From a phage: a stretch of 30,283 nt of DNA. The position numbers and the translations under genes are program-made. Positions within the stretch are counted from its first letter, which is position 1, and each line of letters opens with the position of its first letter. Shown piece after piece: positions 15,000 to 30,283 of the stretch. The notes beneath the pieces were generated by a model. The model worked only from the letters and a program-made list of their open reading frames with translations, was not told where the DNA came from and did not search any database. The stretch lies in the NCBI GenBank assembly GCA_021534775.1, contig GCA_021534775.1_4809.1, one strand, 5' to 3'.

Positions 15000-15038
15000 A
15001 ATATCACCTCGTCAGAAAAGCAAATATTTTGATGATAA

Positions 15039-15686
15039 TTATCCTGTGGCCTGCATACTGCGTACATACTTCTGCTCTAATGAATAGATGAAGTCGGCGA
15101 CAGTCAATCCCTTCGTGTGCCATTCATACATGGTGAAGCCTGTATTCAGGAAATAGCCGCGCACCTTGTCCATCGCTTCAGCTTCCTCCATTGAAGCCAT
15201 CAGCGCGGCGACGTTGTCATAAGAAGGCACAAATCCCTTCTTGCGTAGCGCATTGCGCAAATCTTTAGTTCTGAATCCAATCTTGCAAGGGTCATCACGG
15301 CCCGTGGATGATGCAACCTTCGGTAGCGCAAGGAACTCTTTAAGGAACATTGCAATGTTCAAGTCTCCTGCGTCATCAAGCTTCTGGATTCGGTTGCGAC
15401 CGCGCCCCTTGAATTCACTCGCACGAGGGTGAGCGCCAAAACAGTGCGCCCCTTCCAGTTTAGGGTCAATGATCATTACATCTTTACCAATGCGCAGCTC
15501 TACGTAGTAAAGATAAGACTCATCGACAAGCTTTGTACGTTTGCAAGTGATTGAGTCCTTATCATAGCCAAAGCCACGCAACACTGTTGAAATCATCCGG
15601 TTCATTTCTTCGCCGTGAACATCACTTTCTTTGTTCAGTTCACCAAGATGTTGAAAGAATTTAGCGATGTTGATTGCTTTATTCAT
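15039..15686 (-). CDS. Hypothetical protein (215 aa)
   Basis: ORF; start overlaps the stop of the helicase-like gene. Confidence 0.65.
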   Translation of the reverse strand: MNKAINIAKFFQHLGELNKESDVHGEEMNRMISTVLRGFGYDKDSITCKRTKLVDESYLYYVELRIGKDVMIIDPKLEGAHCFGAHPRASEFKGRGRNRIQKLDDAGDLNIAMFLKEFLALPKVASSTGRDDPCKIGFRTKDLRNALRKKGFVPSYDNVAALMASMEEAEAMDKVRGYFLNTGFTMYEWHTKGLTVADFIYSLEQKYVRSMQATG

Positions 15687-17356
15687 CAGAATTCATCCTT
15701 ATCTCTTCCTAAAGAACGTTTGCGTTCAATAACCTTCTTCAAGAATTCAATATCTTCAGGGTCAGACTCATCGCGGATAAGATACGCTAAGATGGTCATT
15801 AAATCAGAAATGTATTCTCCTGCTTCATTCTTAATCAGCGGCGTAAAGTAACCGCGCTGGTTGCGATAGGTCGCAGGCTCAAAGCCAAGCTTTGACATGT
15901 GCGGCGCAAGGGTACGAGAGAAAGGCGACTTGCCGCACTTCGCTCTGAATCCCATAGCGATAGCACCACTGGTGATGTGCCAGCGTCCGCTGTGATGTCG
16001 GTCATAAGGCGCGGTGATGACGACTTCAACAAGGTCGTTGTCAACCATCTCATCACGGATAACGCCGCGCGCACGTTCCATTTCGTTCTTGCTGAACTCA
16101 GTAAGCATGCGAGATGTTTCACCAACAAACGCGTTATAGCCTGCTTCGCCGTGCTTCTCCATCCATGCAGCGCACTCAGCCATCAACTGCCAAACGTCTT
16201 CTTTCAAAGTAGAAAGGTCAGCTTGGAAGTCTTTCGACCAGTTCGGTTGCCCGTCCTTGTCAGCGAGTTGGCCAACAAATATGGGATACACACGACGGTT
16301 GCCCGTGTCATCACGCTGCATGCCTGCGTATTCGTTGCCGTCCATGATAGCAATCCACTGGCGTGGTTTTACCTGCGTATCTTCAAATTTGAAGTCCAGG
16401 TCATCTTCCGTCTTAGTCAGGAATGCTTTCATGTTTTCGATGTCGGCCTTTTTAAAGCCTGTCATCTCGCCAACGTTCGCTATGATTGAGCGGCCCGTAA
16501 TAGCTCGCAAGAACGGGTTGAAGTTCTGCGCGGCTAAGTTCAACGGAATCGGTGTTGCGTGGCGGTCGTTCATAATAGCTTCGCAAAGCAGCTTGCTAAA
16601 ATAACTCTTCCCTGCGTTCTGGCCGCCGATGAGCGCGATGGAGATTGGCGCTTGACAGCCAGGGTTGGTCAGGCGATTATAGAGCGATAGCCAAAAATAC
16701 ACACCGATTTGTCGGTTTAACTCTGTATCGAACGGTCGGAATAGCTCGATAAGGTATTTCTCAATGCGCGCAGTACCGTCCCATTCAGGCAGCTTCTTGT
16801 AGAAGAAGTCCATCAGGTCGTCGCGCTGATAACGCATGGCCCATTCCTTATAGGATTGAGCGACCTGACGTGAGTTTGGGTTGGACAGCCCTGCTGCGTC
16901 GACAGCGGCAACTATCTCTGTGACTTCCAAGGTACGGTCAGTGAATGTTTCGCCGCGATGGTCGACTAAGCGCCCACGAAAAGTATCTTTGTGAGGGAAT
17001 GGAACAACGCCACTTCCCTTATCAAACAACGCGTCGAAAACCGCATAACGGTTCATGTCACTCGTCCGGTCTGCTTGTAGAACGAAGTCATCTTTGGTCG
17101 GCTTGTAGTGAGGGAACTTGATTACCTGAAGTGAGGCGAGCAAGCGTGCTCTTTCAACCAAGTCTTCTTCACCGTAGCATTCCATGCGCTCTGAATCTTT
17201 TTCAACGGCTTTATGTTGAAGGCTGATTTTAGCTCTGGTGCCTTGTTGCTCTGCTGCCTGCATTTCTTCCGAAACGCCTGCATCTTGAATTTCGTCAAAG
17301 ATTGCACCAAATTCATCACCTGTATCCTCTGGAAGATTGTCATTATTAATTGACAT
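15686..17356 (-). CDS. P-loop NTPase, likely primase-associated (VirE/D5-like) replicative helicase
   Basis: 556-aa ORF with Walker A GGQNAGKS and a hydrophobic stretch ending in acidic residues (SIIANVGEM); lies directly downstream of the primase-like gene. Confidence 0.7.
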   Translation of the reverse strand: MSINNDNLPEDTGDEFGAIFDEIQDAGVSEEMQAAEQQGTRAKISLQHKAVEKDSERMECYGEEDLVERARLLASLQVIKFPHYKPTKDDFVLQADRTSDMNRYAVFDALFDKGSGVVPFPHKDTFRGRLVDHRGETFTDRTLEVTEIVAAVDAAGLSNPNSRQVAQSYKEWAMRYQRDDLMDFFYKKLPEWDGTARIEKYLIELFRPFDTELNRQIGVYFWLSLYNRLTNPGCQAPISIALIGGQNAGKSYFSKLLCEAIMNDRHATPIPLNLAAQNFNPFLRAITGRSIIANVGEMTGFKKADIENMKAFLTKTEDDLDFKFEDTQVKPRQWIAIMDGNEYAGMQRDDTGNRRVYPIFVGQLADKDGQPNWSKDFQADLSTLKEDVWQLMAECAAWMEKHGEAGYNAFVGETSRMLTEFSKNEMERARGVIRDEMVDNDLVEVVITAPYDRHHSGRWHITSGAIAMGFRAKCGKSPFSRTLAPHMSKLGFEPATYRNQRGYFTPLIKNEAGEYISDLMTILAYLIRDESDPEDIEFLKKVIERKRSLGRDKDEF

Positions 17357-17422
17357 TTAATCCTCCTGATACGGCTTTGTTATATTGTTGCATGGATATA
17401 TCCTTTCAGGGTGCGGTAAATA

Positions 17423-17442
17423 AACGCCAGAAATCTGGCGTT
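17423..17442 (-). terminator. Stem-loop, possible attenuator or terminator in the minus operon
   Basis: aacgccag aaat ctggcgtt; on the minus strand it is followed by ttattta. Confidence 0.35.
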
Positions 17443-17492
17443 GTATATTAATATAGTAAAACTCAATTTAAAGCAATATAACTGGTGAACTA

Positions 17493-17783
17493 TCAGCAAG
17501 GAAATTGGTTGGCGTATGCCTTTCTCAATTTGTTTACTGATTGAACAGCATGAAGGTATTGGCAATCGGTGAAGATGCGGCGCAAATGATCCATAGAAGA
17601 CAGGTCATCGTTAGTAACCACCAGAATCTCTTCCGAAGGGCAACCAGCTTCTTTGACAATCTCATTGAGATTTGCGCCACTAATTTCTTCAACACGTTTC
17701 ACCTCATCGATACCGTAAACATCAACGGCAACTTCGATGTCGTCATCGCTGATATTTTCACCATAAAGAATTACAATATTCAT
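17493..17783 (-). CDS. Hypothetical protein (96 aa)
   Basis: RBS ggggtgag. Confidence 0.6.
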   Translation of the reverse strand: MNIVILYGENISDDDIEVAVDVYGIDEVKRVEEISGANLNEIVKEAGCPSEEILVVTNDDLSSMDHLRRIFTDCQYLHAVQSVNKLRKAYANQFPC

Positions 17784-17902
17784 TTACTCACCCCTGCCAA
17801 ATAATATGCCATATCCAATACATATAATAGCCCCAGGATGATAACAAGGGAAATGATTAATGTGTATTTCTTTACGGCTTTCATAAGTATCTATACCTAA
17901 AT

Positions 17903-18166
17903 TTACTGTTGAGGATCACCAATGGAGTCTGTCGCATCCCATTCAACGCGTGCTGTGCGCTCTGCTGGTGGGCAACCTTCGCCAGCGTAAAGCTCAACAA
18001 CGCCTTCATGAGAGCAGCACTGGCACTCTACAAGGTCGCCATCTTCCCAGGCACCTTCCTCCGCGTTGCGATGCTGCCGCACCTTGATAACATCGCTCGC
18101 ACAGTTAGGACAAGTCGAGAGATTGCTAGTGACGTTCCAGATGAACTCGTTACGGAAAGCGCCCAT
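17903..18166 (-). CDS. Small Cys4 zinc-ribbon protein (87 aa; start at internal ATG)
   Basis: CPNC...CQCC; RBS agaggtg; the track start at 18247 would overlap the upstream gene. Confidence 0.55.
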   Translation of the reverse strand: MGAFRNEFIWNVTSNLSTCPNCASDVIKVRQHRNAEEGAWEDGDLVECQCCSHEGVVELYAGEGCPPAERTARVEWDATDSIGDPQQ

Positions 18167-18167
18167 G

Positions 18168-18458
18168 CTACACCTCTTGATCTCTTTGCTGTTGAATCGC
18201 GGCTGAAGCTTCGTCAAAATTGACTGGCTCAACGGTGAACGTTGCACTGACCGTAAGGTTTTTAATAGTCAGCAGTGTATTGAATCGTTCGGCCTGAAGA
18301 TTCATAGCGACATGTGTGGACACGTTAAGGATTGCACCAACAACTTCCTCCACTGCGTAGCCTGCAAACAAGGGAAGAATCTGGTTGACAAGCTTAAGCT
18401 CGTTTTCAACACGAAGCTTTTGCGCTTCTTCAACAGTCATCATTTTTGGTTCGTTCAT
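18168..18458 (-). CDS. Hypothetical protein (96 aa)
   Basis: ORF in operon context. Confidence 0.6.
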   Translation of the reverse strand: MNEPKMMTVEEAQKLRVENELKLVNQILPLFAGYAVEEVVGAILNVSTHVAMNLQAERFNTLLTIKNLTVSATFTVEPVNFDEASAAIQQQRDQEV

Positions 18459-18461
18459 CTT

Positions 18462-18608
18462 TTATTCCTTAACAAATTCAGAGTAGTATTGGGCCGCAGC
18501 CGCTTGATGGTGAGCCGTGACGCCTTGAAGGGTCGGAAGCTCTACTGGTTTAGGTTCTAACGACTTTAACAGACCTTCAACCTCGATGTTCAATTCTTCG
18601 CTTTGCAT
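18462..18608 (-). CDS. Small protein (48 aa, MQSEELNIEVEGLLKSLEPK...)
   Basis: Hand-translated ORF; RBS agaggtga 5 nt upstream of ATG; first gene after the promoter at 18638-18665. Confidence 0.45.
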   Translation of the reverse strand: MQSEELNIEVEGLLKSLEPKPVELPTLQGVTAHHQAAAAQYYSEFVKE

Positions 18609-18637
18609 AAATCACCTCTGCTTCAGTTCATAAAATG

Positions 18638-18665
18638 ATTATAGTTGCTATAAAAATAAAAGCAA
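18638..18665 (-). promoter_or_regulatory. Sigma70-like promoter (TTGCTT, 16 nt, TATAAT)
   Basis: Read on the minus strand immediately downstream of the primase-like gene. Confidence 0.5.
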
Positions 18666-18666
18666 A

Positions 18667-19749
18667 CTATTTTATGCCACCTGCACGACGATTTATCATG
18701 TCAAGTTGATTCTCAATATAAGGCATGACGATTGCTTCAACAAAAGCGGTCCAACCTTTCTTGCCTTCCCCTTTCCGGTGACAGTCGTGGGCGCAACCGA
18801 ACACAAACTCATGTTCTGCACCAGGAATAGGGCCACGAAAGTAAGCGCCATACGGGTCTCCGTTGGTGTGCTCTTCACCCCAAGGACAGATTATGCGGCA
18901 CTTGCCTGACATATTTTCAATAACGTCGCCATCAGACCCTTCACCCATCTTGTTGCGCGCTAGAATCTGCTGGGCTATTTTATACCAAACAGCATCGTAC
19001 TTGTATTCATCGACGTCAATTTGAATCTCACGCTTTTGCGGCATGACGACGTGAAAGCCGAATGCCTGACAAATGTCTTCGATGGTGTAGCGCAATGAGT
19101 AGTCTGCATGGACAAGTCGGCAGCGGAACGGGTCACCGTTCTCATCGACATATTTATAGGGGCCGTCATGAGTCACACGCTTGTTGTTGATGCACCCAGG
19201 AACACGGCCCACGCGCGTTACGTCTTTAATCGTGTTGTCGCCGCCCTTCTTGAGTACCATGTTAACGAAAGACCCAAGGAACGCTTTGAACTGAATAAGA
19301 TGGTCAATCGGTTCTTTAAAGAAGTACCAAAGCTGGTGGTTGTTCGGTGACGTCTCGACGATGACAGTTGGCTTCAGTCGCTCGAAAAAGAACTCCAAAT
19401 CTAAATCGCCTTTGGACCCTTTACCGTGACCGATGTCATCAACCATCATCGCCATGCCGTGACCAAAGGCCGACTCTGTACGCCAGTATCGCATCTCACC
19501 CGTCTTTGGGTTGGGAGACTTACGCATTGAACTGATGCAAGCATAGCCGTTTTGGTGCTGCATGAGCGGCTTGCCCAACTTCCAAGGCTTAGGCCAGAAA
19601 CTGCTGTTAATCTTCTTGCCGCGCTCGTCGGTCTGCACCGTTGCTTCAGGCGCAAACACCGTCATGACGCGTTCATCTTCTGGAATGCCTCTTTGGAGTT
19701 CTGTTAAAAACTCTTCGATTATTTTTGCTTCTTCTCTTAAACTAGCCAT
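18667..19749 (-). CDS. Putative DNA primase (archaeo-eukaryotic primase / prim-pol-like) with C-terminal Cys/His cluster
   Basis: MMVDDIGHG (DxD-type motif), SPNNHQLWYF (His motif), RVGRVPGCINNK, and C-terminal CRIICPWGEEH...FGCAHDCH; sits next to the P-loop helicase-like gene. Confidence 0.5.
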   Translation of the reverse strand: MASLREEAKIIEEFLTELQRGIPEDERVMTVFAPEATVQTDERGKKINSSFWPKPWKLGKPLMQHQNGYACISSMRKSPNPKTGEMRYWRTESAFGHGMAMMVDDIGHGKGSKGDLDLEFFFERLKPTVIVETSPNNHQLWYFFKEPIDHLIQFKAFLGSFVNMVLKKGGDNTIKDVTRVGRVPGCINNKRVTHDGPYKYVDENGDPFRCRLVHADYSLRYTIEDICQAFGFHVVMPQKREIQIDVDEYKYDAVWYKIAQQILARNKMGEGSDGDVIENMSGKCRIICPWGEEHTNGDPYGAYFRGPIPGAEHEFVFGCAHDCHRKGEGKKGWTAFVEAIVMPYIENQLDMINRRAGGIK

Positions 19750-19778
19750 CTTTCTTTCCTTCGGTGATCAATACCTGC

Positions 19779-19806
19779 AGTATAATATTGAGTGATACAA
19801 AGTCAA
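19779..19806 (-). promoter_or_regulatory. Sigma70-like promoter for the minus-strand operon (TTGACT, 16 nt, TATACT)
   Basis: Divergent intergenic region; followed by RBS aaggaaag and the ATG at 19749. Confidence 0.55.
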
Positions 19807-19842
19807 CAATATTTACCATTTAGTTCACAATTTCGATTTACT

Positions 19843-19871
19843 TTGCTTTATACTATATCTGCAATTATACT
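19843..19871 (+). promoter_or_regulatory. Sigma70-like promoter for the plus-strand operon (TTGCTT, 17 nt, TATACT)
   Basis: Lies 38 nt upstream of the ATG at 19910. Confidence 0.5.
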
Positions 19872-19909
19872 ATCAGAAAATATTTCCGCACTAACAAAGG
19901 TCGCCTGAA

Positions 19910-20236
19910 ATGAACGAAAAAGATACGAAGCAACGCGAACGTGCAACACACGTCGGCATCGTTGAGTCCTTCCTTAATACCCGAATGAACTCAAGCCTAA
20001 CAATCATGCGATTCTTGGGTCAACCAGACAGAATCAAATTTATTTTTGCCGCAAATCCGGTATCGCTGTACATCCCTGTTGAATCCATGGCATACTTAGT
20101 GCGCGGCGAGCAAGGATGGAAGATACCAAACACAACTGTTTTCTTTAGCCATGTTGATGGTGAGATGTTTGAAAGAAAAGAAGATTGCCATTTTATTCCA
20201 GTCTATCTGGACCTTGAAAGCGTAGTGGAGTTATAA
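19910..20236 (+). CDS. Hypothetical protein (108 aa)
   Basis: ORF; TAATG overlap with the helicase start. Confidence 0.6.
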   Translation: MNEKDTKQRERATHVGIVESFLNTRMNSSLTIMRFLGQPDRIKFIFAANPVSLYIPVESMAYLVRGEQGWKIPNTTVFFSHVDGEMFERKEDCHFIPVYLDLESVVEL

Positions 20237-21420
20237 TGAACATTCCAGAATTTTATGATGAGCCAGCGATTCAGTTTAACGCGCAACAAATTGATGCTAT
20301 CGAAAAGGCCGTTGCATGGTACAAGCGATTGCAGGACGGTAAAACGACGAAGCGCGTGTTTTTCATTGCTGGCTATGCAGGGACTGGTAAAACCTCTATT
20401 GCTCGCGAGATTGTGCGCCGTTGTGTCGGTGAGTATGGCGCTATCTATATTGCGCCGACCGGAAAGGCTGCAAGCCGATTAAAGCAAAAAGGATGTCGTG
20501 GCGCTAAGACACTTCACCAGTTCATCTATAACGTGCGCGGCGTAAATGACGACAATGAGCCAATCTTTTCGAGAAAGTCAAAACTGGACGAAAGGCCGCA
20601 CCTTGTTGTACTCGATGAAGCGTCGATGGTTGGCGAGTGGGACACAGAGCGACTTCTTGATCACCGCATCCCTGTTCTGGCATTAGGCGACATTGGACAA
20701 GTCCCTCCGGTAAAAGCCGCCGCCTACTTTACTGAAGAAGCTGTTGACGTTCTGTTAACAGAAATCATGCGGCAGGGGAAAGAGTCCAACATCATCCGTG
20801 CCTCCTTCTTCGTGCGCCAAGGCAACCGACTTCCTCCGCGTGAATACGATGACGTCAAAGTATTGGCAGAATCGCCGCGCGTTACTGCATTGAAGAAATT
20901 CATGGGCGAAGATGATCAAATTATTTGCTCCTATAATAGCACCAAAGATAAATGGAATTCATTATTACGGCAAGTGAGCGGACGTATAACGCCAATGCCA
21001 GGAATCGGCGAGAAGGTTATTTGCACCTTCAACCAACACGGTCCAGGATTCTGTAATGGCGAGCAAGGGATTGTTATTAGCTATGAGCCAGTGCCGGACT
21101 TTGAAAGGGATGAAGATGAGTCGAATGAAATAATGTATGTCAACTTGCGTTCATTGACTGATGGTAAAGATATAAAGGTAAAGATTAATCCTCTTTCCTT
21201 CTCTACTGATCAGGAAGTGCGCAAAGAAGCGCAACGTGCTGTTGGTGGGATGGACTATGGCTATGTCATCACGGTGCACAAATCGCAAGGCAGCGAGTGG
21301 GACAATGTGTGCGTGCTGGAAGAAATCTTGCGCGGCGTTCCGTACTCCAAGATGATGTACACCGCTATCACCCGTGCTAAGAAGAATCTGACCGTGTACC
21401 GTGATTTGAAAGCGCGTTAA
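20236..21420 (+). CDS. Dda/RecD-like superfamily 1 DNA helicase
   Basis: Walker A GYAGTGKTS, Walker B VVLDEASMV, and C-terminal ITVHKSQGSEWDNV / YTAITRAKKNL motifs. Confidence 0.85.
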   Translation: MNIPEFYDEPAIQFNAQQIDAIEKAVAWYKRLQDGKTTKRVFFIAGYAGTGKTSIAREIVRRCVGEYGAIYIAPTGKAASRLKQKGCRGAKTLHQFIYNVRGVNDDNEPIFSRKSKLDERPHLVVLDEASMVGEWDTERLLDHRIPVLALGDIGQVPPVKAAAYFTEEAVDVLLTEIMRQGKESNIIRASFFVRQGNRLPPREYDDVKVLAESPRVTALKKFMGEDDQIICSYNSTKDKWNSLLRQVSGRITPMPGIGEKVICTFNQHGPGFCNGEQGIVISYEPVPDFERDEDESNEIMYVNLRSLTDGKDIKVKINPLSFSTDQEVRKEAQRAVGGMDYGYVITVHKSQGSEWDNVCVLEEILRGVPYSKMMYTAITRAKKNLTVYRDLKAR

Positions 21421-21579
21421 TGTTGACGTAAATTTACGAAAAATAAAACTGAAAATCAGTTTAATTAAAGTGGCATTGCCGCCATAGTTTTTAGTTGCTA
21501 CTGGCGGCGACTGAAGGCATAATTAAGTTATCCCAAACGGGGAATATAAAATAAACTAATTTATTTAAGGACTGTGAAC

Positions 21580-22419: not shown

Positions 22420-22447
22420 CCTGTAGGACGGTTATATAGCGGTAATT

Positions 22448-22475
22448 GACCCACACTTGTTGTGGGTCTTTTTTC
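22448..22475 (+). terminator. Intrinsic terminator
   Basis: gacccacac ttgt tgtgggtc followed by tttttt. Confidence 0.75.
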
Positions 22476-22500
22476 GTCTGTACTAAATAGAAATGACTTG

Positions 22501-22529
22501 TTGCTGTAAAATAATTTAGCTATTATACT
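22501..22529 (+). promoter_or_regulatory. Sigma70-like promoter (TTGCTG, 17 nt, TATACT) for the enzyme operon
   Basis: Lies between the terminator and the ATG at 22560. Confidence 0.5.
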
Positions 22530-22559
22530 TCTCATATCACCCACAAAGGACAAATGAAC

Positions 22560-23549: not shown

Positions 23550-23550
23550 T

Positions 23551-23578
23551 TTGCTTTCTGCTTCAATGGGCGTATACT
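23551..23578 (+). promoter_or_regulatory. Sigma70-like promoter (TTGCTT, 16 nt, TATACT) overlapped by an inverted repeat
   Basis: Inverted repeat ctgcttcaatg (23559-23569) / cattgaagcag (23585-23595) brackets the -10. Confidence 0.45.
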
Positions 23579-23614
23579 TTAATCATTGAAGCAGAACTCA
23601 TAGAGGAAACGAAA

Positions 23615-24061
23615 ATGAAACGAATCACTGGAATCGCGCTTGCCGCAACCGCTATTCTCGGCACCATGTATATGGAAGCTACTGAAGCAGCTGTCCGCAC
23701 TTCCGATTCAATCGCTGTGTATGATTGCGAAGCGATGGACGGTAAAACCGCAGCAGCCACTGGCGCAACTATCACGGCTTACATCGGCGTGAACGAGCAA
23801 GAAGGTCTGAATATTCAGATTCAAGGATTCACAGGCAAAGGTGCCAACCGCACTCCTTGGATGCAACGTTTCACTTTCGTTCAGCCTCGTTCAACTGGCG
23901 GCTTTATCAACCTGATTGGTGAAAACCGTTCTGGTGCAGAAATCTTTACATCAATGAGTTCTAATAATGAACCAAAGAAAAGTTTTCAGTTGCTTTATAA
24001 CGCACAATTCGTTTATCATTGCACCTTCTCTGGTGATCAGCAACTAGTAAATTACCGTTAA
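23615..24061 (+). CDS. Putative secreted or periplasmic protein (148 aa)
   Basis: N-terminal signal-peptide-like segment MKRITGIALAATAILG; no lipobox cysteine. Confidence 0.6.
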   Translation: MKRITGIALAATAILGTMYMEATEAAVRTSDSIAVYDCEAMDGKTAAATGATITAYIGVNEQEGLNIQIQGFTGKGANRTPWMQRFTFVQPRSTGGFINLIGENRSGAEIFTSMSSNNEPKKSFQLLYNAQFVYHCTFSGDQQLVNYR

Positions 24062-24074
24062 TAGGATAATTAAA

Positions 24075-24878
24075 ATGAAAGTTGAATTAATTCGATACAC
24101 CCAAGATGCACTTGACCTTCTGCTGGAAACAAAGAACACGCGCATGACTGGTAAGCCTGTCTCTGAGATGACGGAATCAGAGAAGCAAGAGCATTGGCGC
24201 TACATGCTTGACACCATCAAGTCGCCTTTTGACTTTGTGGACTATATCTTTGACATCACCGCTGTATCAAAGAATATGACTCATCAGATGGTACGCACAC
24301 GCACAGGCGCATATCAAGAACGCACCAGCCGCGCTCAGGAATCTTCTGCATTTGATGCGATTCGCCCGAAAGCGTTTGAGTATGACGACCCTGACAGGGT
24401 TATCGGCGAGCGAATCGACGAGCAGCGTTTGAAGTTGGCTAACACCTGGGATGATGCAATGGCAACCATTGATGCCCTATACCAAGAACTTCGCGCGGCT
24501 GGCGCAGAGATTCAGGATGCACGTGCTGTGTTGCCTTCTAATATGCAAACGCATATCATGGCAAAGTTCAACTTGCGCACTCTACAACAAATGGCATCAA
24601 ACCGCTTGTGCACGCGCACTCAAGGCGAATATCAGGAAGTTTTCCGTGCGATGGTAGCGGAAGTCCTCAAGGTGCACCCGTGGGCTAATCCTTTACTACA
24701 GCCGCAATGCATCGGTATGGGTAAGTGCGCATTTCCTCGTCACGGTAAGGCCCATTGCCCATGGTATCGTGGTTGGATGGATACCACTGCACAGCAAGAA
24801 GAGTTGCGCATCCAGTTTTGGAATGCCGCGCCAATCACCAACAATCCAGTTGCTAAAGATGGAGTATCAAAGGGATGA
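24075..24878 (+). CDS. Divergent ThyX-like (flavin-dependent thymidylate synthase family) protein
   Basis: SPFDF...THQMVRTRTGAYQERTSRAQ and ARAVLPSN...NLRTLQQMASNRL match the ThyX signature regions (TPFEH / RHRx7-8S / ARAVLP / NxRxxxxFxxLR as I recall them) but with substitutions at signature positions. Confidence 0.7.
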   Translation: MKVELIRYTQDALDLLLETKNTRMTGKPVSEMTESEKQEHWRYMLDTIKSPFDFVDYIFDITAVSKNMTHQMVRTRTGAYQERTSRAQESSAFDAIRPKAFEYDDPDRVIGERIDEQRLKLANTWDDAMATIDALYQELRAAGAEIQDARAVLPSNMQTHIMAKFNLRTLQQMASNRLCTRTQGEYQEVFRAMVAEVLKVHPWANPLLQPQCIGMGKCAFPRHGKAHCPWYRGWMDTTAQQEELRIQFWNAAPITNNPVAKDGVSKG

Positions 24879-25747
24879 GCATTAAAAACAGTGAAATCTT
24901 AAACGTATTTGACCTTGACGGAACGCTGTTTGATGACCGTTGGCGCTTAGACCGCATCAAGGTGGCAGGACCGCTGTCAGACTACGATGATTATCACTGC
25001 GGCATTGGTTATGATCAGTTCTATCCTAACATTGCATCCGCAGTAGAGGCTGCATCTCTTCGCGGTGAGGCGGTTGAATATTGGACTGCAAGGCCAGAAA
25101 AATACAGACAAGTGACTTTTGAACGTCTGGACAATGTTTTCCCTTTTGATGAATTTACAATCAAGATGAGAGACTCTGGCGACAAACGTCCATCAACTAT
25201 TATGAAGTCTGCATGGCTATCGCACGCATTGCGGCACGGCGATTATCGAATCATCAATGTATTCGACGACCGACAAGACGTACTCGCGCGGATGCAAGAT
25301 GAAGCATTGTATTATAATTCCGTTGCTCAAAATAAAATCGCTTTTACATTTAATCTTTGCAAGGCAGGTGAAGTGGTGCAACAATTAGCAATTGATCCAA
25401 GCGCAACAGGGCAAGAAGAGACTAAGGCTGTGGAAGTTGAACAACCTCCGGCAACCGCTGCTGATATTCTTGATGCGATGGCCGCGACCTTCCGTGAGCG
25501 CAACGCCGTTTATGGCGATAACGCTGTGATGGTAGGTCAGGTTATGCAGGTCCTGTTCCCTAATGGTGTGACGCTGAAAACGCCGGAAGACTACCACATG
25601 TGGCATCTTTTCGAGCTTAAGATTGTCAAGCTTACACGCTTCGCAATCAGCGGCCTGAAGCACGAAGATTCTATACACGACGATGGTGTTTACAGCGCCA
25701 TGTGTGAACGTCTCGTCAACACCCACAATATTAATTTCAATAAATAG
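24875..25747 (+). CDS. HAD-superfamily phosphatase-like domain fused to a C-terminal domain of unknown function
   Basis: Motif I FDLDGTLFD, a Thr in WTARPE, a Lys (MKSAW) and VFDDRQD; C-terminal about 115 aa (RERNAVYGDNAVMVGQV...) is unassigned. ATGA overlap with the ThyX-like gene. Confidence 0.65.
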   Translation: MSIKNSEILNVFDLDGTLFDDRWRLDRIKVAGPLSDYDDYHCGIGYDQFYPNIASAVEAASLRGEAVEYWTARPEKYRQVTFERLDNVFPFDEFTIKMRDSGDKRPSTIMKSAWLSHALRHGDYRIINVFDDRQDVLARMQDEALYYNSVAQNKIAFTFNLCKAGEVVQQLAIDPSATGQEETKAVEVEQPPATAADILDAMAATFRERNAVYGDNAVMVGQVMQVLFPNGVTLKTPEDYHMWHLFELKIVKLTRFAISGLKHEDSIHDDGVYSAMCERLVNTHNINFNK

Positions 25748-25776
25748 TTTACTTGTGCGTTTCGATGAGTTATATT
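25748..25776 (+). promoter_or_regulatory. Sigma70-like promoter (TTTACT, 17 nt, TATATT) overlapped by an inverted repeat
   Basis: Inverted repeat gtttcgatgag (25759-25769) / ctcatcgaaac (25780-25790) brackets the -10. Confidence 0.45.
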
Positions 25777-25812
25777 TATCTCATCGAAACGAAGTCCAAA
25801 AAGGATAAATAA

Positions 25813-26496
25813 ATGAAAAAAGTAATTGTTGTAACTGGCTGCAACTCCGGTCTTGGTAAATCAATTTTTGACACCCTTGGCGCTTACGGTCACGAAGTCG
25901 TCGGAATCGATTTAGACAATGGATATGACATCCGCAATGCTAAACAGATGAAAGAGCTTCTCTCTCAATACGACGTAGAAGGCTTGATCAACTGTGCTGG
26001 CGTCAACTCTAACAACTGGTTTGAAGATGTCAACTACGAAGAGTTCAACCGCGTTATGCACACCAACGCCTTCTCTTTCGTCAACACAACTCAAGCCGCG
26101 CTGAAAAGTCTTATCGACAACAAAGGTTTTGTGATCAACATCGTTTCCAACGCTGCGCATATTCCTATGACGTCCAGCTTGTGTTATAATGCATCCAAGG
26201 CCGCTGCACTGATGATCAGCAAGCAGATGGCCCACGAGCTTACGCCTAAGTACGGCATCACGGTATTCTCTATTAGTCCTAACAAGTTGCGCGGCACTGG
26301 TATGTCTAAGCAGATTGAAGATGCTGTTTGTGCGACTCGCGGCTGGACTCCTGAATACGCCGCTGAATACCAGAAAAAGGCGTTGATGAATGGATTGGAG
26401 ACTGAGCCGCAAGTAATTGCTGACTTCATTCGCCATATCTTAATTACGGGCGCATGGCGCTTTATGTCTGGGACTGATATTCCATTTGGGAAATAA
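25813..26496 (+). CDS. Short-chain dehydrogenase/reductase (SDR) family oxidoreductase
   Basis: TGCNSGLGK (TGxxxGxG), NAG-like INCAGV, catalytic S...YNASK (YxxxK). Confidence 0.85.
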   Translation: MKKVIVVTGCNSGLGKSIFDTLGAYGHEVVGIDLDNGYDIRNAKQMKELLSQYDVEGLINCAGVNSNNWFEDVNYEEFNRVMHTNAFSFVNTTQAALKSLIDNKGFVINIVSNAAHIPMTSSLCYNASKAAALMISKQMAHELTPKYGITVFSISPNKLRGTGMSKQIEDAVCATRGWTPEYAAEYQKKALMNGLETEPQVIADFIRHILITGAWRFMSGTDIPFGK

Positions 26497-26499
26497 ATC

Positions 26500-26667
26500 A
26501 TGACTATCAAAGTTGTTGTAGAAGTGATTGGCGACGTGGCAGAAGTGAAGATTGATCAAGAAGGCGTTGGATTTGAAGTAATAAGAATCGAAAACGCAAA
26601 GGTTAACCACGAGCGCGTCGGTTCCATTGAGACTTATTCCATAGAAGGCAAAGATAAGGGCGAATAA
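26500..26667 (+). CDS. Small protein (55 aa, MTIKVVVEVIGDVAEVKIDQEGVGFEVIRIENAKVNHERVGSIETYSIEGKDKGE)
   Basis: Hand-translated ORF packed between the SDR and the next gene with 3-nt spacers. Confidence 0.4.
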   Translation: MTIKVVVEVIGDVAEVKIDQEGVGFEVIRIENAKVNHERVGSIETYSIEGKDKGE

Positions 26668-26669
26668 CC

Positions 26670-26885
26670 ATGAACAAAGCCTGGATAGCGGTAATCGGTT
26701 TAGTGCTTCTTGTTGTATTAGGATACACAATCAAATTTGAAGTTCCAAATCCTGTTGAGCCTGACAAAAAGATTGTCGTTGAAGTCCCAGGCGCTAAAGG
26801 TGAATTGCCCAAACCTAAATTTGAAGTTGTCACACCAGCTCCTGAAAAGAAACAGGACGAAGACAACACAGTAATTAATCAATAA
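26670..26885 (+). CDS. Small membrane-anchored protein (71 aa)
   Basis: N-terminal TM helix WIAVIGLVLLVVLGY followed by a Pro/Lys/Glu-rich tail. Confidence 0.55.
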   Translation: MNKAWIAVIGLVLLVVLGYTIKFEVPNPVEPDKKIVVEVPGAKGELPKPKFEVVTPAPEKKQDEDNTVINQ

Positions 26886-26905
26886 TATTTAATTAAGGAA
26901 ACAAA

Positions 26906-27457
26906 ATGCCACATTTTAAAATTGAACAAATCGCCCTGTCCATTCCAGATGCTCAACGCGCTCAGGACTTCCTGGCTAAAATCGGCCTGACAGAGTGGTT
27001 CCATGATCATGTTGTTGCTACTGGTCGCGTATTTGAAGCTGATGACTTTAAAGGTCGTCGCGACGATTGCACCAATGAAGCTGACTTGCGCTTCAACTAT
27101 CAGGCTGGCAACGGCACCGATGTCGGCGCTGGTAAGCCTCTTGAGCTTGAAATCCTTGACTACACAATGGGCTGCAACTGGATTAATGAAAACATCGAAT
27201 ATATCGATGCGCACGATAATCAGGTCAGCCACCTTGGCATGCACGTGACTGCCGCTGAACTCGCTGAATGGCGTAAGTTCTTTAGTGAAGAAGGCATTCA
27301 GGTTGCACAGGAAGTTGTAACCGACTCTCACACCAACCCAAATATTGCTGGTCAGCGTCGTTACAACTATGTGATCTTTGATACTCGTGAAATCATCGGT
27401 GTCGACCTTAAGTTCATTGTGCGGTTGAATCAAGACGGTACTCCGTACACTGTATAA
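26906..27457 (+). CDS. VOC (glyoxalase / bleomycin-resistance / dioxygenase) fold protein, tentative
   Basis: RBS aagga; overall pattern including SHLGMHV suggests a metal-binding VOC-type fold, but the assignment is weak. Confidence 0.5.
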   Translation: MPHFKIEQIALSIPDAQRAQDFLAKIGLTEWFHDHVVATGRVFEADDFKGRRDDCTNEADLRFNYQAGNGTDVGAGKPLELEILDYTMGCNWINENIEYIDAHDNQVSHLGMHVTAAELAEWRKFFSEEGIQVAQEVVTDSHTNPNIAGQRRYNYVIFDTREIIGVDLKFIVRLNQDGTPYTV

Positions 27458-27473
27458 AGAATCTTAAATCTGT

Positions 27474-27498
27474 GGCCGTCCTAATGGGCGGCCTTTTT
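27474..27498 (+). terminator. Intrinsic terminator
   Basis: ggccgtcc taat gggcggcc followed by ttttt. Confidence 0.7.
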
Positions 27499-27511
27499 GT
27501 AGGAGGCTAAT

Positions 27512-28054
27512 GTGTTATTTCTCCCTTATGACTTCGAAACAACCGGATTGACCGTGCACCCGAAAGCGCCGCTTGGAATGCAGCCGCGCCCTATTGAATT
27601 TGCAGGCCTGTTGACAGACGGCAAAGAGATTCTTGAAACGTTCGAGTTCATAATTAATCCTGAAATTGTGATTGAAGAAATCATCACAAAGATTACCGGA
27701 TTAACCAATGAAGACCTTGAGTGCAATCCACCATTCATCAACTTCGTCCCGCAGCTAAAAGAAATCTTCAAGAAGACGGATGCAACTATTGCGCACAACC
27801 ATGCGTTCGATAAGAACATTCTTGATTATGCACTACAGCGCGAAGGACTTACGCTTGATGATGTTAATTTTCCAGAAATAAACATATGTACAGTTGAGCA
27901 AACCTTGCCTATTTTTGGCCGAAGAGTTAAGCTTCAAGAGTTGTATGAATTATATTTCGGAAAATATGAACAGAAGCACCGTGCATTAGACGACGTAATA
28001 TTACTGCACAAAGTCTGCCAACAAATTGGCGTATATGACATCTGGAGTAAATAA
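27512..28054 (+). CDS. DnaQ-like DEDDh 3'-5' exonuclease (proofreading subunit-like)
   Basis: GTG start 5 nt after aggagg; Exo I YDFETTG, Exo II AHNHAFD, Exo III HRALDD. Confidence 0.85.
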   Translation: MLFLPYDFETTGLTVHPKAPLGMQPRPIEFAGLLTDGKEILETFEFIINPEIVIEEIITKITGLTNEDLECNPPFINFVPQLKEIFKKTDATIAHNHAFDKNILDYALQREGLTLDDVNFPEINICTVEQTLPIFGRRVKLQELYELYFGKYEQKHRALDDVILLHKVCQQIGVYDIWSK

Positions 28055-30283
28055 TGTTTCCACAATTGAGAGTTCGCAGCGGTTACACGTTCAAAGAAGT
28101 TTATGGACGGCATCCTGAAATTATAGCACGGCTCAAAGAGTTGGGCTGCGAAGTCGCGGCATTAGTTGATAACAATACATGGGGTCACGTTCGCTGGGAA
28201 AAGGAATGCCAGAAAAATGATATTAAGCCTATGTTTGGGATGGAGATTCCAATCATCGACCCTGATGCGGACCCGAAAAAGGGATTCAAACCGAAGGCTT
28301 GGATATTGGCCCTTGACTTAAAATCTTTTTACAACGCTACAACACTTGCAACGCAGCGCGGTGGACTTACCCGTGCAGAGTTCGGGGCGCTCGATGGCGT
28401 CGTTAAATTCTGTGGCGGTGCCGTGGAGCTGCTGCGGCCAGAGGACTACGACTATATAGACGTCAACCCATCATCGTTCCTTTTGGCAAAGCGCCAGGCA
28501 TTGGCTCATCGTAGCGGTGGAAGGCCGCTGGTTTTAACCGGATACAATCACATGCCTTCTCCTGAGCACGTTGACTTCGCTTATGCTTGGGAAGTTCGCG
28601 ACACTGTGAAGCCGCATTGCATCGTTGACGTGGAAGACTTGCGCAAACAGCTTAAAGGCATCTTGACTGAAGATGAGCTCAATCAGGCAACGGCCAATGC
28701 TGTTGACATAGCAAACGGCATAGTCGGACTTGACTTGAAATTGCGTAAGGCACCGATTATTCACCTTGCTGGTGACATGGTAAAGCTTGCTCGCGAGGGG
28801 ATGGAGTACCGTCTAAAAGCAGGTCACATCAAAGAATGGACTCAGGAATATGAGGACCGCTTCAACGAAGAAATTCACCAGATTCAGCTGAAAGATTTCG
28901 ACTCATACTTTCTGGTAGTAGCCGACCTTGTACGATTCGCAAAAACAAAAATGCTTGTCGGTCCTGCGCGCGGCTCATCGGCTGGTTCACTTGTTTGCTA
29001 TTGCCTCGGCATCACGGAAGTGGACCCAATACCGTATAAGCTGCTGTTTGCCCGATTCATCGACGTAAGCCGCGCCGACCTTCCTGACATCGACATCGAC
29101 TTTGAAGATACCAAACGCTATATGGTGTTTGATTATCTTAAAGAGAAATACGGCGAAATGAACGTTGCAAAGCTTGGCAACATCAACACGCTTAAGGCCA
29201 ACTCAGTAATGGCGCAGGTTGGTAAGAAGTTCAACATTGGATACCACGAAACGGCCAACATTAAAAACGCACTGCTTGAATACTCATCCGGTGACGCCCG
29301 TTATGGTCACGGCCTGGAGGATACCTTTGCAACAACGACCACGGGTCAAGAGTTCGTGGCGAAATATCCTGACGCCGCGCGTTGCATGGGTGACCTTGAG
29401 ATTCACCCGTCTCACACAGGTGTTCACGCAGCGGGAATCATTGTGTGTAATGACCCAATCTCTGATTACTGTACTGTAACTGCAGAAGGGATTGCGCAAA
29501 TTGATAAGCCTGACAGCGAATACCTTAACCTTTTGAAGCTTGATGCGTTGGGCCTTCGTACCCTCGGCATCATTTCTGATACTGGCGTGATAGATGCTGA
29601 AACGCTGTACGGAATCAAGCTTGATGATCAAAGCGTCCTTGACATCCTTAACGAAAACAAAATGTCAGGCATCTTCCAGTTTGAAGGTGACGCTGTACGC
29701 TCAGTAACCAACTTTGTGCACGTTGATAACTTTAACAAAATCGATAACCTGACAGCACTTGGTCGACCTGGCCCGTTGTCATCCGGTATGGCCCAGAAAT
29801 ACATCGAACGCGCGGCAGGGCGTGCACCGATTGAGTATGATGTGCCGCAGCTTGAGCCGTACTTAAAAGAGACTTACGGCGTGTTTCTTTACCAAGAGCA
29901 AATCATGGCCGTGGTTAAAGAGATTGGTTCATTTGACTGGGCGAAAACATCCGCTGTACGTAAGGCGATGTCAGGCCGTAAGGGTGAGGAATACTTTAAC
30001 AAGCTTGGCGAAGACTTCGTTGCAGGCGCAATAAATAATGGCGTACCGGAAGCGGATGCAAGAAAGCTTTGGCAGGCGATGGCGACGTTCGGGTCATGGG
30101 GCTTTAACAAGTCACACTCCGTGTCATACGCGGTCGTGACCTACTGGACCTTGTGGCTTAAACGACACTACCCGTTGGAATTTGCCGCTGCTTGCTTACG
30201 CGCTGCTAAGGACGAAGACCAGACGATTGCGATATTACGTGAACTTGCGAAGGAAGGCGTGGATTACGTTCCAATCGACCCTG
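28054..30283 (+). CDS. dnaE: DNA polymerase III alpha (DnaE-type) catalytic subunit, 3'-partial
   Basis: ATG overlaps the exonuclease stop (TAATG) and the frame stays open to the window end. Palm motifs GSSAGSLVCYCLGITEVDP and FARFIDVSRADLPDIDIDFEDTKR; N-terminal PHP region with degenerate His motif (QLRVRSGYTF). Confidence 0.9.
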   Translation, partial: MFPQLRVRSGYTFKEVYGRHPEIIARLKELGCEVAALVDNNTWGHVRWEKECQKNDIKPMFGMEIPIIDPDADPKKGFKPKAWILALDLKSFYNATTLATQRGGLTRAEFGALDGVVKFCGGAVELLRPEDYDYIDVNPSSFLLAKRQALAHRSGGRPLVLTGYNHMPSPEHVDFAYAWEVRDTVKPHCIVDVEDLRKQLKGILTEDELNQATANAVDIANGIVGLDLKLRKAPIIHLAGDMVKLAREGMEYRLKAGHIKEWTQEYEDRFNEEIHQIQLKDFDSYFLVVADLVRFAKTKMLVGPARGSSAGSLVCYCLGITEVDPIPYKLLFARFIDVSRADLPDIDIDFEDTKRYMVFDYLKEKYGEMNVAKLGNINTLKANSVMAQVGKKFNIGYHETANIKNALLEYSSGDARYGHGLEDTFATTTTGQEFVAKYPDAARCMGDLEIHPSHTGVHAAGIIVCNDPISDYCTVTAEGIAQIDKPDSEYLNLLKLDALGLRTLGIISDTGVIDAETLYGIKLDDQSVLDILNENKMSGIFQFEGDAVRSVTNFVHVDNFNKIDNLTALGRPGPLSSGMAQKYIERAAGRAPIEYDVPQLEPYLKETYGVFLYQEQIMAVVKEIGSFDWAKTSAVRKAMSGRKGEEYFNKLGEDFVAGAINNGVPEADARKLWQAMATFGSWGFNKSHSVSYAVVTYWTLWLKRHYPLEFAAACLRAAKDEDQTIAILRELAKEGVDYVPIDP

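What the first reader, a model, noticed from the sequence alone, without database searches (positions are those of the whole stretch)
15686..30283. Replication module built from DnaE-type polymerase, separate DnaQ-like exonuclease, primase-like protein, P-loop helicase and Dda-like helicase
The polymerase is bacterial replicase-like (DnaE palm motifs, degenerate PHP His motif) with a separately encoded DEDDh exonuclease joined by a TAATG overlap. Priming appears to be supplied by an AEP/prim-pol-like protein and a VirE/D5-like P-loop NTPase rather than a DnaG/DnaB pair. The primase-like assignment is the weakest element here.
Basis: partly seen in the sequence, partly recalled or inferred. Interest (0 to 1): 0.4.

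Follow-up and report, generated by a model that had tools for sequence, protein, structure and literature searches.

The report
Known Wifcevirus phage DNA replication genes

Summary
All five elements are real and lie at the stated coordinates:
- a VapE/D5-type P-loop helicase (15686-17356, -);
- a RepB'-type archaeo-eukaryotic primase (AEP) (18667-19749, -);
- a Dda/RecD-like SF1B helicase (20236-21420, +);
- a 180-aa DEDDh exonuclease (27512-28054, +);
- a DnaE-type polymerase (28054 to the window end, 743 of about 965 codons), joined to the exonuclease by a TAATG overlap.

The polymerase keeps the three catalytic aspartates, but its PHP N-terminal His motif reads QLRVR.

The window is 96% identical in DNA to Wifcevirus phages (Bas98, vB_EcoM_WFC), whose GenBank records already name these genes. 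A 2020 paper lists the same replication genes for this genus. A 2025 paper describes the same module in the related Pbunavirus phages, which share the gene order.

Small additions from this work:
- the polymerase and exonuclease have no recognisable clamp-binding motif;
- the exonuclease lacks epsilon's C-terminal tail;
- the primase carries a C-terminal Cys/His domain instead of RepB's helix bundle.

Verdict: confirmed, interpretation supported, already known, low interest.

The parts
15686..17356 (-). VapE/D5-type SF3 P-loop helicase (556 aa). It is the probable hexameric replicative or origin-opening helicase. GenBank records label it 'DNA primase'.
   Evidence: PF05272 at E 1.6e-28 and phrog_4630 at E 4e-254. 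Walker A GGQNAGKS at 244-251 and RRVYP at 354-358. PDB 7pds ('Similar to D. nodosus vapE', six chains) at E 4e-11. 45% identical to Pbunavirus LMA2 ORF74.
18667..19749 (-). RepB'-type AEP primase (360 aa). The AEP catalytic domain spans about residues 25-235. A C-terminal Cys/His (C288, H294, C319, H321) putative zinc domain spans about residues 250-360.
19750..19909 (.). AT-rich divergent intergenic region between the leftward (primase/helicase) and rightward (Dda to polymerase) gene sets. It is a candidate site for divergent early promoters. A role as origin is speculation.
   Evidence: Sequence. A sigma-70-like TTGACT-16-TATACT on the minus strand at 19806-19779. Cumulative GC-skew minimum at about 20 kb. 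No iteron-like repeats found.
19910..20236 (+). 108-aa ORF of unknown function whose stop overlaps the Dda-like helicase start (TAATG).
   Evidence: No Pfam or PHROG hit. Annotated as hypothetical in Bas98.
20236..21420 (+). Dda/RecD-like SF1B helicase (394 aa).
   Evidence: AAA_30 1.3e-22 and UvrD_C_2 6.2e-13. phrog_325 'Dda-like helicase' 1.8e-99. RecD2 TIGR01448 1.5e-34, below its cut-off. Motifs GYAGTGKT 46-53, DEAS 127-130 and HKSQG 348-352.
24075..24878 (+). Flavin-dependent thymidylate synthase ThyX (dTMP supply for replication).
   Evidence: PF02511 at E 1.6e-29. Same position in Bas98 and LMA2.
24875..25747 (+). Protein with an N-terminal HAD phosphatase domain of the PNKP type (290 aa). 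Its C-terminal half is unassigned.
   Evidence: PF25109 at E 1.1e-8. phrog_4889 at E 8e-118. No PDB sequence hit.
27474..27498 (+). Terminator-like GC hairpin plus T-run. It is followed directly by the AGGAGG ribosome-binding site of the exonuclease gene.
27512..28054 (+). DnaQ/epsilon-like DEDDh 3'-5' exonuclease (180 aa, GTG start). It is the probable proofreading subunit.
   Evidence: RNase_T at E 9.6e-22. phrog_192 'DNA polymerase exonuclease subunit' 2.3e-37. D7, E9, D100, H156, D161. 56% identical to LMA2 ORF56, which also overlaps its polymerase gene.
28054..30283 (+). DnaE-type C-family DNA polymerase, first 743 codons. The gene runs off the window. The orthologue in Bas98 is 965 aa.
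   Evidence: PF07733 1.9e-63 and PF17657 6.8e-38. 33% identical to E. coli DnaE with D345/D347/D497 conserved. 100% identical in protein to vB_EcoM_WFC. Best PDB hits are Taq, E. coli and M. tuberculosis Pol III alpha at 1e-79 to 1e-85.

Best explanation
The window comes from a virulent E. coli myophage of the genus Wifcevirus. The interval holds that phage's own replication genes, arranged as two divergent early or middle gene sets around 19750-19909.

Likely mechanism (the gene identities are shown; the steps are inferred from homology):
1. The VapE/D5-type SF3 helicase assembles as a hexamer, opens the phage DNA and unwinds it.
2. The separately encoded RepB'-type AEP primase lays down primers. 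These may be DNA primers, as for RepB' and PrimPols.
3. The DnaE-type polymerase extends them. Its PHP domain has lost the His ligands, so proofreading is supplied in trans by the co-translated 180-aa DEDDh exonuclease.
4. The Dda-like SF1B helicase acts as an accessory motor, for example in obstacle removal or recombination-dependent restart.
5. ThyX supplies dTMP.

An SNF2-type translocase, a MazG-like pyrophosphatase and an ATP-dependent ligase lie just beyond the window end in the complete relative and complete the set.
For: Identity of the element:
- 96.2% nucleotide identity over 100% of 15686-30283 to Escherichia phage HermannAdler_Bas98.
- 28 records cover at least 80% of the query.
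- The DnaE fragment is 100% identical in protein to vB_EcoM_WFC.

Gene identities.

Conserved order:
- Pbunavirus LMA2 has the same order, at 41-63% protein identity: helicase, primase, then divergently Dda, TolA-like, ORF65, ThyX, phosphatase, exonuclease, polymerase, small ORF and SNF2.
- A 40-kb Ralstonia phage has a gene cassette of the same order and sizes: a 179-aa gene, the polymerase (44% identical), a small ORF and a 516-aa gene.

PHP degeneracy goes with a separate exonuclease:
- The Wifcevirus, Pbunavirus and Ralstonia phage polymerases read RVR or RIK where Gordonia phage Flapper has HTH.
- Flapper has no adjacent exonuclease gene.

No other polymerase, DnaB, DnaG, clamp or SSB is annotated in the complete Bas98 genome.

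Published descriptions agree:
- PMC7048862 lists the same replication genes for Wifcevirus vB_Eco4M-7.
- PMC12390725 describes the same roles for Pbunavirus Banzai.
Against: No biochemical data exist for any of these proteins in this phage group. The 2025 paper itself says the interactions 'remain obscure'.

The exonuclease lacks the C-terminal segment by which E. coli epsilon binds alpha (180 aa against 243 aa). In E. coli the nuclease occupies the first 185 residues and the tether is the last 57 (abstract of PMC2528190). The physical coupling is therefore unproven.

No canonical clamp-binding motif is present, so the source of processivity is unknown.

RepB' in RSF1010 primes only at specific ssi sites, so general lagging-strand priming by this primase is an assumption.

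'Absence' of DnaB, DnaG and SSB elsewhere in the genome rests on annotation, and roughly two thirds of the genes are 'hypothetical'.
Confidence: 0.85

Rival explanations
1. RSF1010-like strand-displacement replication. The RepB'-type primase primes only at one or a few specific single-strand initiation sites. The helicase unwinds, and the DnaE-type polymerase copies each strand continuously. There is no phage-driven Okazaki-fragment synthesis.
For: The primase belongs to the RepB' family by profile, fold and the ETSPxNYQxW motif. By my own knowledge of RSF1010 (Geibel et al. 2009), RepB' primes site-specifically at ssiA/ssiB and replication proceeds by strand displacement. No clamp, clamp loader or clamp-binding motif was found.
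Against: The C-terminal domain differs from RepB's helix bundle: it is a Cys/His domain. The genome relative encodes an ATP-dependent DNA ligase, which fits discontinuous synthesis. No ssi-like long hairpins stood out in the repeat scan of 15000-30283, but the rest of the genome was not scanned.
Confidence: 0.15
2. The exonuclease is not a polymerase subunit. It would be an independent nuclease, for example one that degrades host nucleic acid or a signalling nucleotide, and merely lies next to the polymerase gene.
For: It lacks epsilon's alpha-binding tail and clamp motif. It falls below every NCBIfam epsilon equivalog cut-off. Start/stop overlaps are common in this genome.
Against: A gene of the same size lies directly upstream of the polymerase gene in three phage lineages. 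It is a confirmed 56%-identical exonuclease in LMA2. In these lineages the polymerase has lost the N-terminal His ligands of the PHP domain. The best family matches are PolC-internal and epsilon-type proofreading domains.
Confidence: 0.08
3. The DnaE homologue is a specialised, DnaE2-like error-prone polymerase, and the host Pol III replicates the phage.
For: One GenBank record labels the Pbunavirus orthologue 'dnaE2: error-prone DNA polymerase' (H28). The protein is short, with no recognisable OB or tau-binding region.
Against: It scores 496 bits on the DnaE1 model against 331 on the DnaE2 model. It is paired with a proofreading-type exonuclease. It is the only polymerase annotated in the genome, and it is co-conserved with a helicase and a primase.
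Confidence: 0.04

Closest known systems
Replication gene block of Wifcevirus phages (vB_EcoM_WFC NC_048195, HermannAdler_Bas98 PQ850608, vB_Eco4M-7 MN176217)
   Same: 94-96% nucleotide identity across the whole interval among the records listed. The genes, order and overlaps match. The records already annotate them as DNA polymerase (III alpha), DNA polymerase exonuclease subunit, DNA primase (twice), Dda-like/RecD-like helicase and thymidylate synthase. PMC7048862 lists the same replication genes.
   Different: Nothing of substance. One amino-acid difference from Bas98 in 743 polymerase residues.
Replication module of Pbunavirus (PB1-like) Pseudomonas phages, e.g. LMA2 and Banzai
   Same: Same gene order and orthologous proteins: polymerase 63%, exonuclease 56%, helicase 45%, ORF65 41% and primase 64% identity. 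PMC12390725 gives the same functional reading: alpha and epsilon homologues, a primase, a SaPI-like self-loading helicase, a Dda-like helicase and an SNF2-like translocase.
   Different: Different host. The Wifcevirus block has extra genes between the phosphatase and the exonuclease (SDR, glyoxalase-like) and a 215-aa ORF coupled to the helicase. LMA2 has other small ORFs.
E. coli DNA polymerase III core (alpha DnaE + epsilon DnaQ)
   Same: C-family palm and fingers with the three catalytic aspartates. A PHP domain that no longer has a full metal site. Proofreading by a separate DEDDh exonuclease.
   Different: Only 33% (alpha) and 24% (epsilon) identity. The phage alpha is about 965 aa, with no match to the tau-binding end and no QADMF or QVELEF clamp motifs. 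The phage epsilon stops at 180 aa, without the QTSMAF clamp motif or the alpha-binding tail. No theta, clamp or clamp loader is present.
RSF1010 RepB' primase and cyanophage S-2L PrimPol (PrimPol-PV1 supergroup of AEPs)
   Different: 14-19% identity. The C-terminal partner domain is a Cys/His putative zinc module rather than RepB's helix bundle or S-2L's PriCT-2. The helicase is a separate gene 1.3 kb away, not fused as in S-2L PrimPol.
Self-loading SF3 Rep helicases of staphylococcal pathogenicity islands (PDB 7pds), VapE/D5 family
   Same: The P-loop core aligns at E 4e-11. It has Walker A and the RR motif of the VapE family.
   Different: The N-terminal 190 and C-terminal 150 residues have no recognisable family. 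Origin recognition is untested.

Membership tests
Genus Wifcevirus (phage taxon) | High nucleotide identity and collinearity with the type phage vB_EcoM_WFC | tested here: met
   96.1% identity over 98% of 14.6 kb to WFC and 96.2% over 100% to Bas98. A tail-fibre gene lies at 72-1628 in the same window.
C-family DNA polymerase, DnaE type | Palm (DNA_pol3_alpha) and finger domains above Pfam gathering scores | tested here: met
   214.9 bits against a cut-off of 23.9, and 130.1 bits against 22.
C-family DNA polymerase, DnaE type | Three catalytic aspartates of the palm (E. coli D401, D403, D555) | tested here: met
   D345, D347 and D497 align to them.
C-family DNA polymerase, DnaE type | NCBIfam superfamily model TIGR00594 above its cut-off; DnaE rather than PolC | tested here: met
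   475 bits against a cut-off of 434 on the full-length Bas98 orthologue. The PolC models reach only 41-45 bits.
Bacterial DnaE1 (replicase orthologue group) | Equivalog score (NF004226 cut-off 1002) | tested here: not met
   496 bits. It is a divergent phage lineage, not a bacterial DnaE1 orthologue.
Bacterial DnaE1 (replicase orthologue group) | Beta-clamp-binding motif (QxxLF / QLxLxL type) | tested here: not met
   A regex scan finds QADMF and QVELEF in E. coli alpha. It finds nothing in the Bas98, LMA2 or Ralstonia phage polymerases.
Bacterial DnaE1 (replicase orthologue group) | C-terminal OB fold and tau-binding domain | tested here: inconclusive
   This region lies outside the window. 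In Bas98 the last 224 residues have no Pfam hit at E<=10. Only about 167 residues follow the region alignable to E. coli 872, which is too short for both domains.
PHP domain with active metal site | N-terminal HxH metal ligands | tested here: not met
   QLRVRS in the window, against LHTHS in Gordonia phage Flapper and HLRVHS in E. coli. The Pfam PHP hit is only marginal (27.1 against 26.4). No PDB sequence hit for residues 1-250. The other ligand positions were not resolved.
DnaQ/epsilon DEDDh exonuclease | Exo I (DxE), Exo II (NxxFD) and Exo III-epsilon (Hx4D) residues | tested here: met
   D7/E9, D100 and H156/D161. RNase_T at 78.7 bits against a cut-off of 24.
DnaQ/epsilon DEDDh exonuclease | C-terminal alpha-binding segment and clamp motif of E. 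coli-type epsilon | tested here: not met
   The protein ends at residue 180, 19 residues after Exo III. There is no QTSMAF-like motif. All epsilon equivalog cut-offs are missed.
Archaeo-eukaryotic primase superfamily, RepB' family | AEP catalytic fold | tested here: met
   [not shown]
Archaeo-eukaryotic primase superfamily, RepB' family | Pfam RepB_primase domain and family signature motifs | tested here: met
   124.9 bits against a cut-off of 24.3. ETSPNNHQLWY aligns to RepB' ETSPKNYQAWV. D104/D105, D171/D176 and Y69 are invariant in 22 homologues.
Archaeo-eukaryotic primase superfamily, RepB' family | RepB'-type C-terminal helix-bundle domain | tested here: not met
   [not shown]
Archaeo-eukaryotic primase superfamily, RepB' family | Primer synthesis activity | not testable with these tools
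   Needs biochemistry.
VapE/D5-type SF3 helicase | VapE-like P-loop domain with Walker A and arginine motif | tested here: met
   PF05272 at 100.1 bits against a cut-off of 25. GGQNAGKS at 244-251 and RRVYP at 354-358. 7pds at E 4e-11.
VapE/D5-type SF3 helicase | Hexamer formation, unwinding, self-loading at an origin | not testable with these tools
   Inferred from SaPI Rep proteins, as cited in PMC12390725.
Dda/RecD-like SF1B helicase | AAA_30 + UvrD_C_2 architecture with motifs I, II and V/VI | tested here: met
   GYAGTGKT, DEAS and HKSQG. phrog_325 at 1.8e-99. The RecD2 and RecD equivalog cut-offs are not reached, so it is family level only.

The most novel reading that the evidence does not exclude
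The Wifcevirus/Pbunavirus machinery could be a stripped-down C-family replisome that works without a sliding clamp. It would consist of:
- an alpha with no clamp motif and no tau-binding end;
- an epsilon with no tether, bound through a new interface;
- a RepB'-type AEP primase whose Cys/His C-terminal module plays the template-reading role that the zinc-binding domain plays in DnaG-type primases, possibly making DNA rather than RNA primers.

Such a minimal Pol III-like core might contribute to the very short latent period reported for Wifcevirus phages (PMC11990801).
Probability: 0.15. Interest if true: 0.45.

Novelty: already known. Interest (0 to 1): 0.1.

Why it matters
It matters little as a discovery. 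The genes, their names and their arrangement are already in GenBank and in at least two papers.

The block has some practical value:
- It is a compact, apparently self-sufficient C-family replication set from phages used or considered for therapy (Pbunavirus) and for O157 detection (Wifcevirus).
- It would be a convenient system for asking how a DnaE-type polymerase works without an encoded clamp, clamp loader or tau, and with an untethered proofreader.

None of these proteins has been characterised biochemically, according to the papers read here.

Tried and rejected
- Direct sequence search of the primase against PDB gave only E 0.39-0.75 to RepB'. A 22-sequence profile gave E 0.09. Sequence alone would not have settled the fold; the structure model did.
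- PDB sequence search of the polymerase N-terminal 250 residues found nothing at E<=10. The state of the PHP ligands beyond the N-terminal motif could not be read.
- Pfam at E<=10 found nothing on four pieces: the primase C-terminal domain, the helicase N-terminal part, the helicase C-terminal part, and the Bas98 polymerase C-terminal 224 residues.
- I looked for iterons or an origin in 19750-19909 and elsewhere in 15000-30283. Only the coding repeats of the TolA-like gene appeared. A candidate promoter-box motif, CTGCARTWATAMTAT, occurs once, no more than chance.
- No tRNA and no Rfam family in the window.
- Promoter and terminator scans are at shuffle level overall (24 against 21, and 22 against 16). 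Only the strongest hairpins are mentioned.
- PDB sequence searches of the 331-aa Rossmann-like protein and the phosphatase-like protein gave nothing useful.
- A bacterial or prophage origin was considered and rejected. All close matches are virulent phage genomes, and a tail-fibre gene is in the window.
Full report
**What is there**

The interval 15686-30283 contains nineteen ORFs arranged as two divergent sets around an AT-rich 160-bp spacer at 19750-19909.

Leftward set:
- a RepB_primase-domain protein (18667-19749; PF16793, E 4.5e-36);
- several small ORFs;
- a VapE-like P-loop protein (15686-17356; PF05272, E 1.6e-28);
- a coupled 215-aa ORF (15039-15686).

Rightward set:
- a 108-aa ORF;
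- a Dda/RecD-like SF1B helicase (20236-21420; AAA_30, UvrD_C_2);
- a K/A/E-rich 'TolA-like' protein;
- a 331-aa protein with a dinucleotide-binding motif;
- a protein with a signal-peptide-like N-terminus;
- ThyX (24075-24878);
- a HAD-phosphatase protein;
- a short-chain dehydrogenase;
- two tiny ORFs;
- a glyoxalase-like protein;
- a terminator-like hairpin;
- a 180-aa RNase_T-family exonuclease (27512-28054);
- the first 743 codons of a DnaE-type polymerase (28054 to the window end), overlapping the exonuclease by TAATG.

PHROG names for the five key proteins are 'DNA primase', 'DNA primase', 'Dda-like helicase', 'DNA polymerase exonuclease subunit' and 'DNA polymerase'.

- The exonuclease carries the full DEDDh set (D7, E9, D100, H156, D161). 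These align with E. coli epsilon.
- The polymerase is 33% identical to E. coli DnaE over palm, thumb and fingers. It keeps the three catalytic aspartates (D345, D347, D497 = D401, D403, D555).
- It passes the TIGR00594 superfamily cut-off.
- It scores far better on DnaE1 models than on DnaE2 or PolC models, and reaches no equivalog cut-off.
- Its N-terminus is only marginally recognisable as PHP (27.1 bits against 26.4).
- It reads QLRVRS where a PHP-intact phage DnaE (Gordonia phage Flapper) reads LHTHS and E. coli reads HLRVHS. The 'degenerate PHP His motif' is therefore real. It is shared by the Pbunavirus and Ralstonia phage orthologues. In all three lineages a gene of about 180 aa lies directly upstream of the polymerase gene (a confirmed exonuclease orthologue in LMA2), whereas Flapper has none.

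**The primase**

- A 22-sequence alignment gave an AlphaFold model with mean pLDDT 84.9.
- A profile search aligned ETSPGNYQLWY to RepB' ETSPKNYQAWV.
- Invariant residues include D104-D105 (the acidic motif), D171/D176 with R179/R182, and Y69. Y69 may correspond to the steric-gate tyrosine described for S-2L PrimPol (PMC8065100). That correspondence is inferred, not tested.

The AEP reading stands.

**The P-loop protein**

- It has Walker A (244-251) and the RR motif typical of VapE proteins.
- It matches PDB 7pds at E 4e-11, a chain named 'Similar to D. nodosus vapE' deposited as six chains.
- A 2025 paper on the Pbunavirus Banzai calls its orthologue a homologue of the self-loading hexameric helicases of staphylococcal islands and the leading candidate for the initiator (PMC12390725).

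It is better described as the replicative or initiator helicase than as part of priming, despite the GenBank label 'DNA primase'.

**Where the window comes from**

- Megablast of the interval finds 36 phage records. In 28 of them a single match covers at least 80% of the query, and 29 are 90-99% identical.
- Nearly all are Escherichia phages of the genus Wifcevirus.
- The best is HermannAdler_Bas98 (96.2% over 100%).
- The polymerase fragment is 100% identical in protein to vB_EcoM_WFC and differs at one residue from Bas98.
- The Bas98 record already annotates every one of the five genes.
- The complete Bas98 genome has no annotated DnaB, DnaG, clamp, clamp loader or SSB. Beyond the window end it has a 140-aa ORF, an SNF2-type protein, a MazG-like pyrophosphatase and an ATP-dependent ligase.
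- Necel et al. [quoted passage not shown]
- Humolli et al. 2025 note that Wifcevirus phages are distant relatives of Pbunavirus (PMC11990801).
- Pbunavirus LMA2 shows the same gene order with 41-63% identical proteins.
- DnaE homologues occur in 1386 phage records, so a phage-borne C-family polymerase is itself common.

**How it most likely works**

The gene identities are shown; the steps below are inferred from the families.
1. The SF3 helicase opens and unwinds the DNA.
2. The AEP primase primes. RepB' and PrimPols use dNTPs (my own knowledge for RepB'; for S-2L), so DNA primers are possible.
3. The DnaE-type polymerase extends.
4. The DEDDh protein proofreads in place of the dead PHP site.
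5. Dda-like and SNF2-type motors assist.
6. ThyX and MazG condition the nucleotide pool.
7. The ligase seals nicks.

**Open points I could document**

- The exonuclease ends at residue 180. It therefore lacks the 57-residue tail that tethers E. coli epsilon to alpha (PMC2528190 abstract).
- A motif scan recovers the known clamp-binding peptides of E. coli alpha and epsilon. It finds none in the polymerases or exonucleases of three phage lineages.
- The polymerase C-terminal region, which lies outside the window, has no Pfam match and is too short to hold both an OB fold and a tau-binding domain.

How the exonuclease binds, and what gives processivity, are unknown.

**Rivals**

- An RSF1010-like strand-displacement mode with site-specific priming cannot be excluded (confidence 0.15).
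- An exonuclease unrelated to the polymerase is disfavoured by the conserved adjacency and the family scores (0.08).
- A DnaE2-like specialised polymerase is disfavoured for the same reasons (0.04).

**Verdict**

The feature is the already annotated, already published replication block of a known phage genus, conserved in the well-known PB1-like phages. Novelty: already known. Interest: low (0.1).

The most novel reading still open is a clamp-independent minimal Pol III-like replisome with a zinc-module AEP primase. I give it about 15%, and it would be of moderate interest.

Noticed in passing
window 21574-22419 (+): 281-aa K/A/E-rich 'TolA-like' protein with roughly 99-nt internal repeats and a non-repetitive C-terminal 90 residues. 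It belongs to PHROG 4765 (unknown function). Its orthologue was detected by mass spectrometry in vB_Eco4M-7 virion preparations (PMC7048862), although it sits among replication genes.
   Followed up: partly
window 26906-27457 (+): 183-aa glyoxalase/VOC-like protein (Pfam only E 0.003, below the cut-off). It lies between the dehydrogenase and the exonuclease. Its orthologue was also found by MS in virion preparations, with about 50% coverage (PMC7048862).
   Followed up: partly
window 22554-23549 (+): 331-aa protein with an N-terminal IIGGGLAGL dinucleotide-binding motif. It has no Pfam, NCBIfam or PDB sequence match. It is 41% identical to Pbunavirus LMA2 ORF65 at the same position, and one GenBank record calls it UDP-galactopyranose mutase. 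Function unknown.
   Followed up: partly
[not shown]
   Followed up: partly
window 27512-30283 and L001:15835-19274, L004:13441-17102, L006:2454-5754: There is no QxxLF or QLxLxL clamp-binding motif in the polymerase or exonuclease of Wifcevirus, Pbunavirus or a Ralstonia phage. The E. coli alpha and epsilon controls are found. No clamp or clamp loader is annotated in Bas98.
   Followed up: yes
window 15039-15686 (-): 215-aa ORF whose ATG overlaps the stop of the VapE-type helicase gene (TGATG). It has no Pfam or PHROG family. Pbunavirus LMA2 has a terminator at the corresponding place.
   Followed up: no
window 17903-18247 (-): Small ORF with a CPNC...CQCC cysteine pattern (zinc-ribbon-like), between the helicase and primase genes. 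Bas98 annotates a shorter version. No family hit.
   Followed up: no
window 19750-19909: AT-rich divergent spacer where the coding strand switches and cumulative GC skew reaches its minimum. It has sigma-70-like boxes on both strands. No iterons were found, so an origin role is only a guess.
   Followed up: partly
L001:19261-21203 (Bas98; just beyond the window end): A 140-aa ORF overlaps the polymerase stop and is followed by an SNF2-family protein (PF00176 1.8e-21). In LMA2 the two genes after the polymerase carry the same 'DNA helicase' annotations (138 aa and 538 aa). In a 40-kb Ralstonia phage the unannotated neighbours have matching order and sizes (144 aa and 516 aa). The small ORF has no family hit but is labelled 'DNA helicase'.
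   Followed up: partly
window 23615-24061 (+): 148-aa protein with a signal-peptide-like N-terminus (MKRITGIALAATAILG...), embedded among nucleotide-metabolism genes. No family hit.
   Followed up: no
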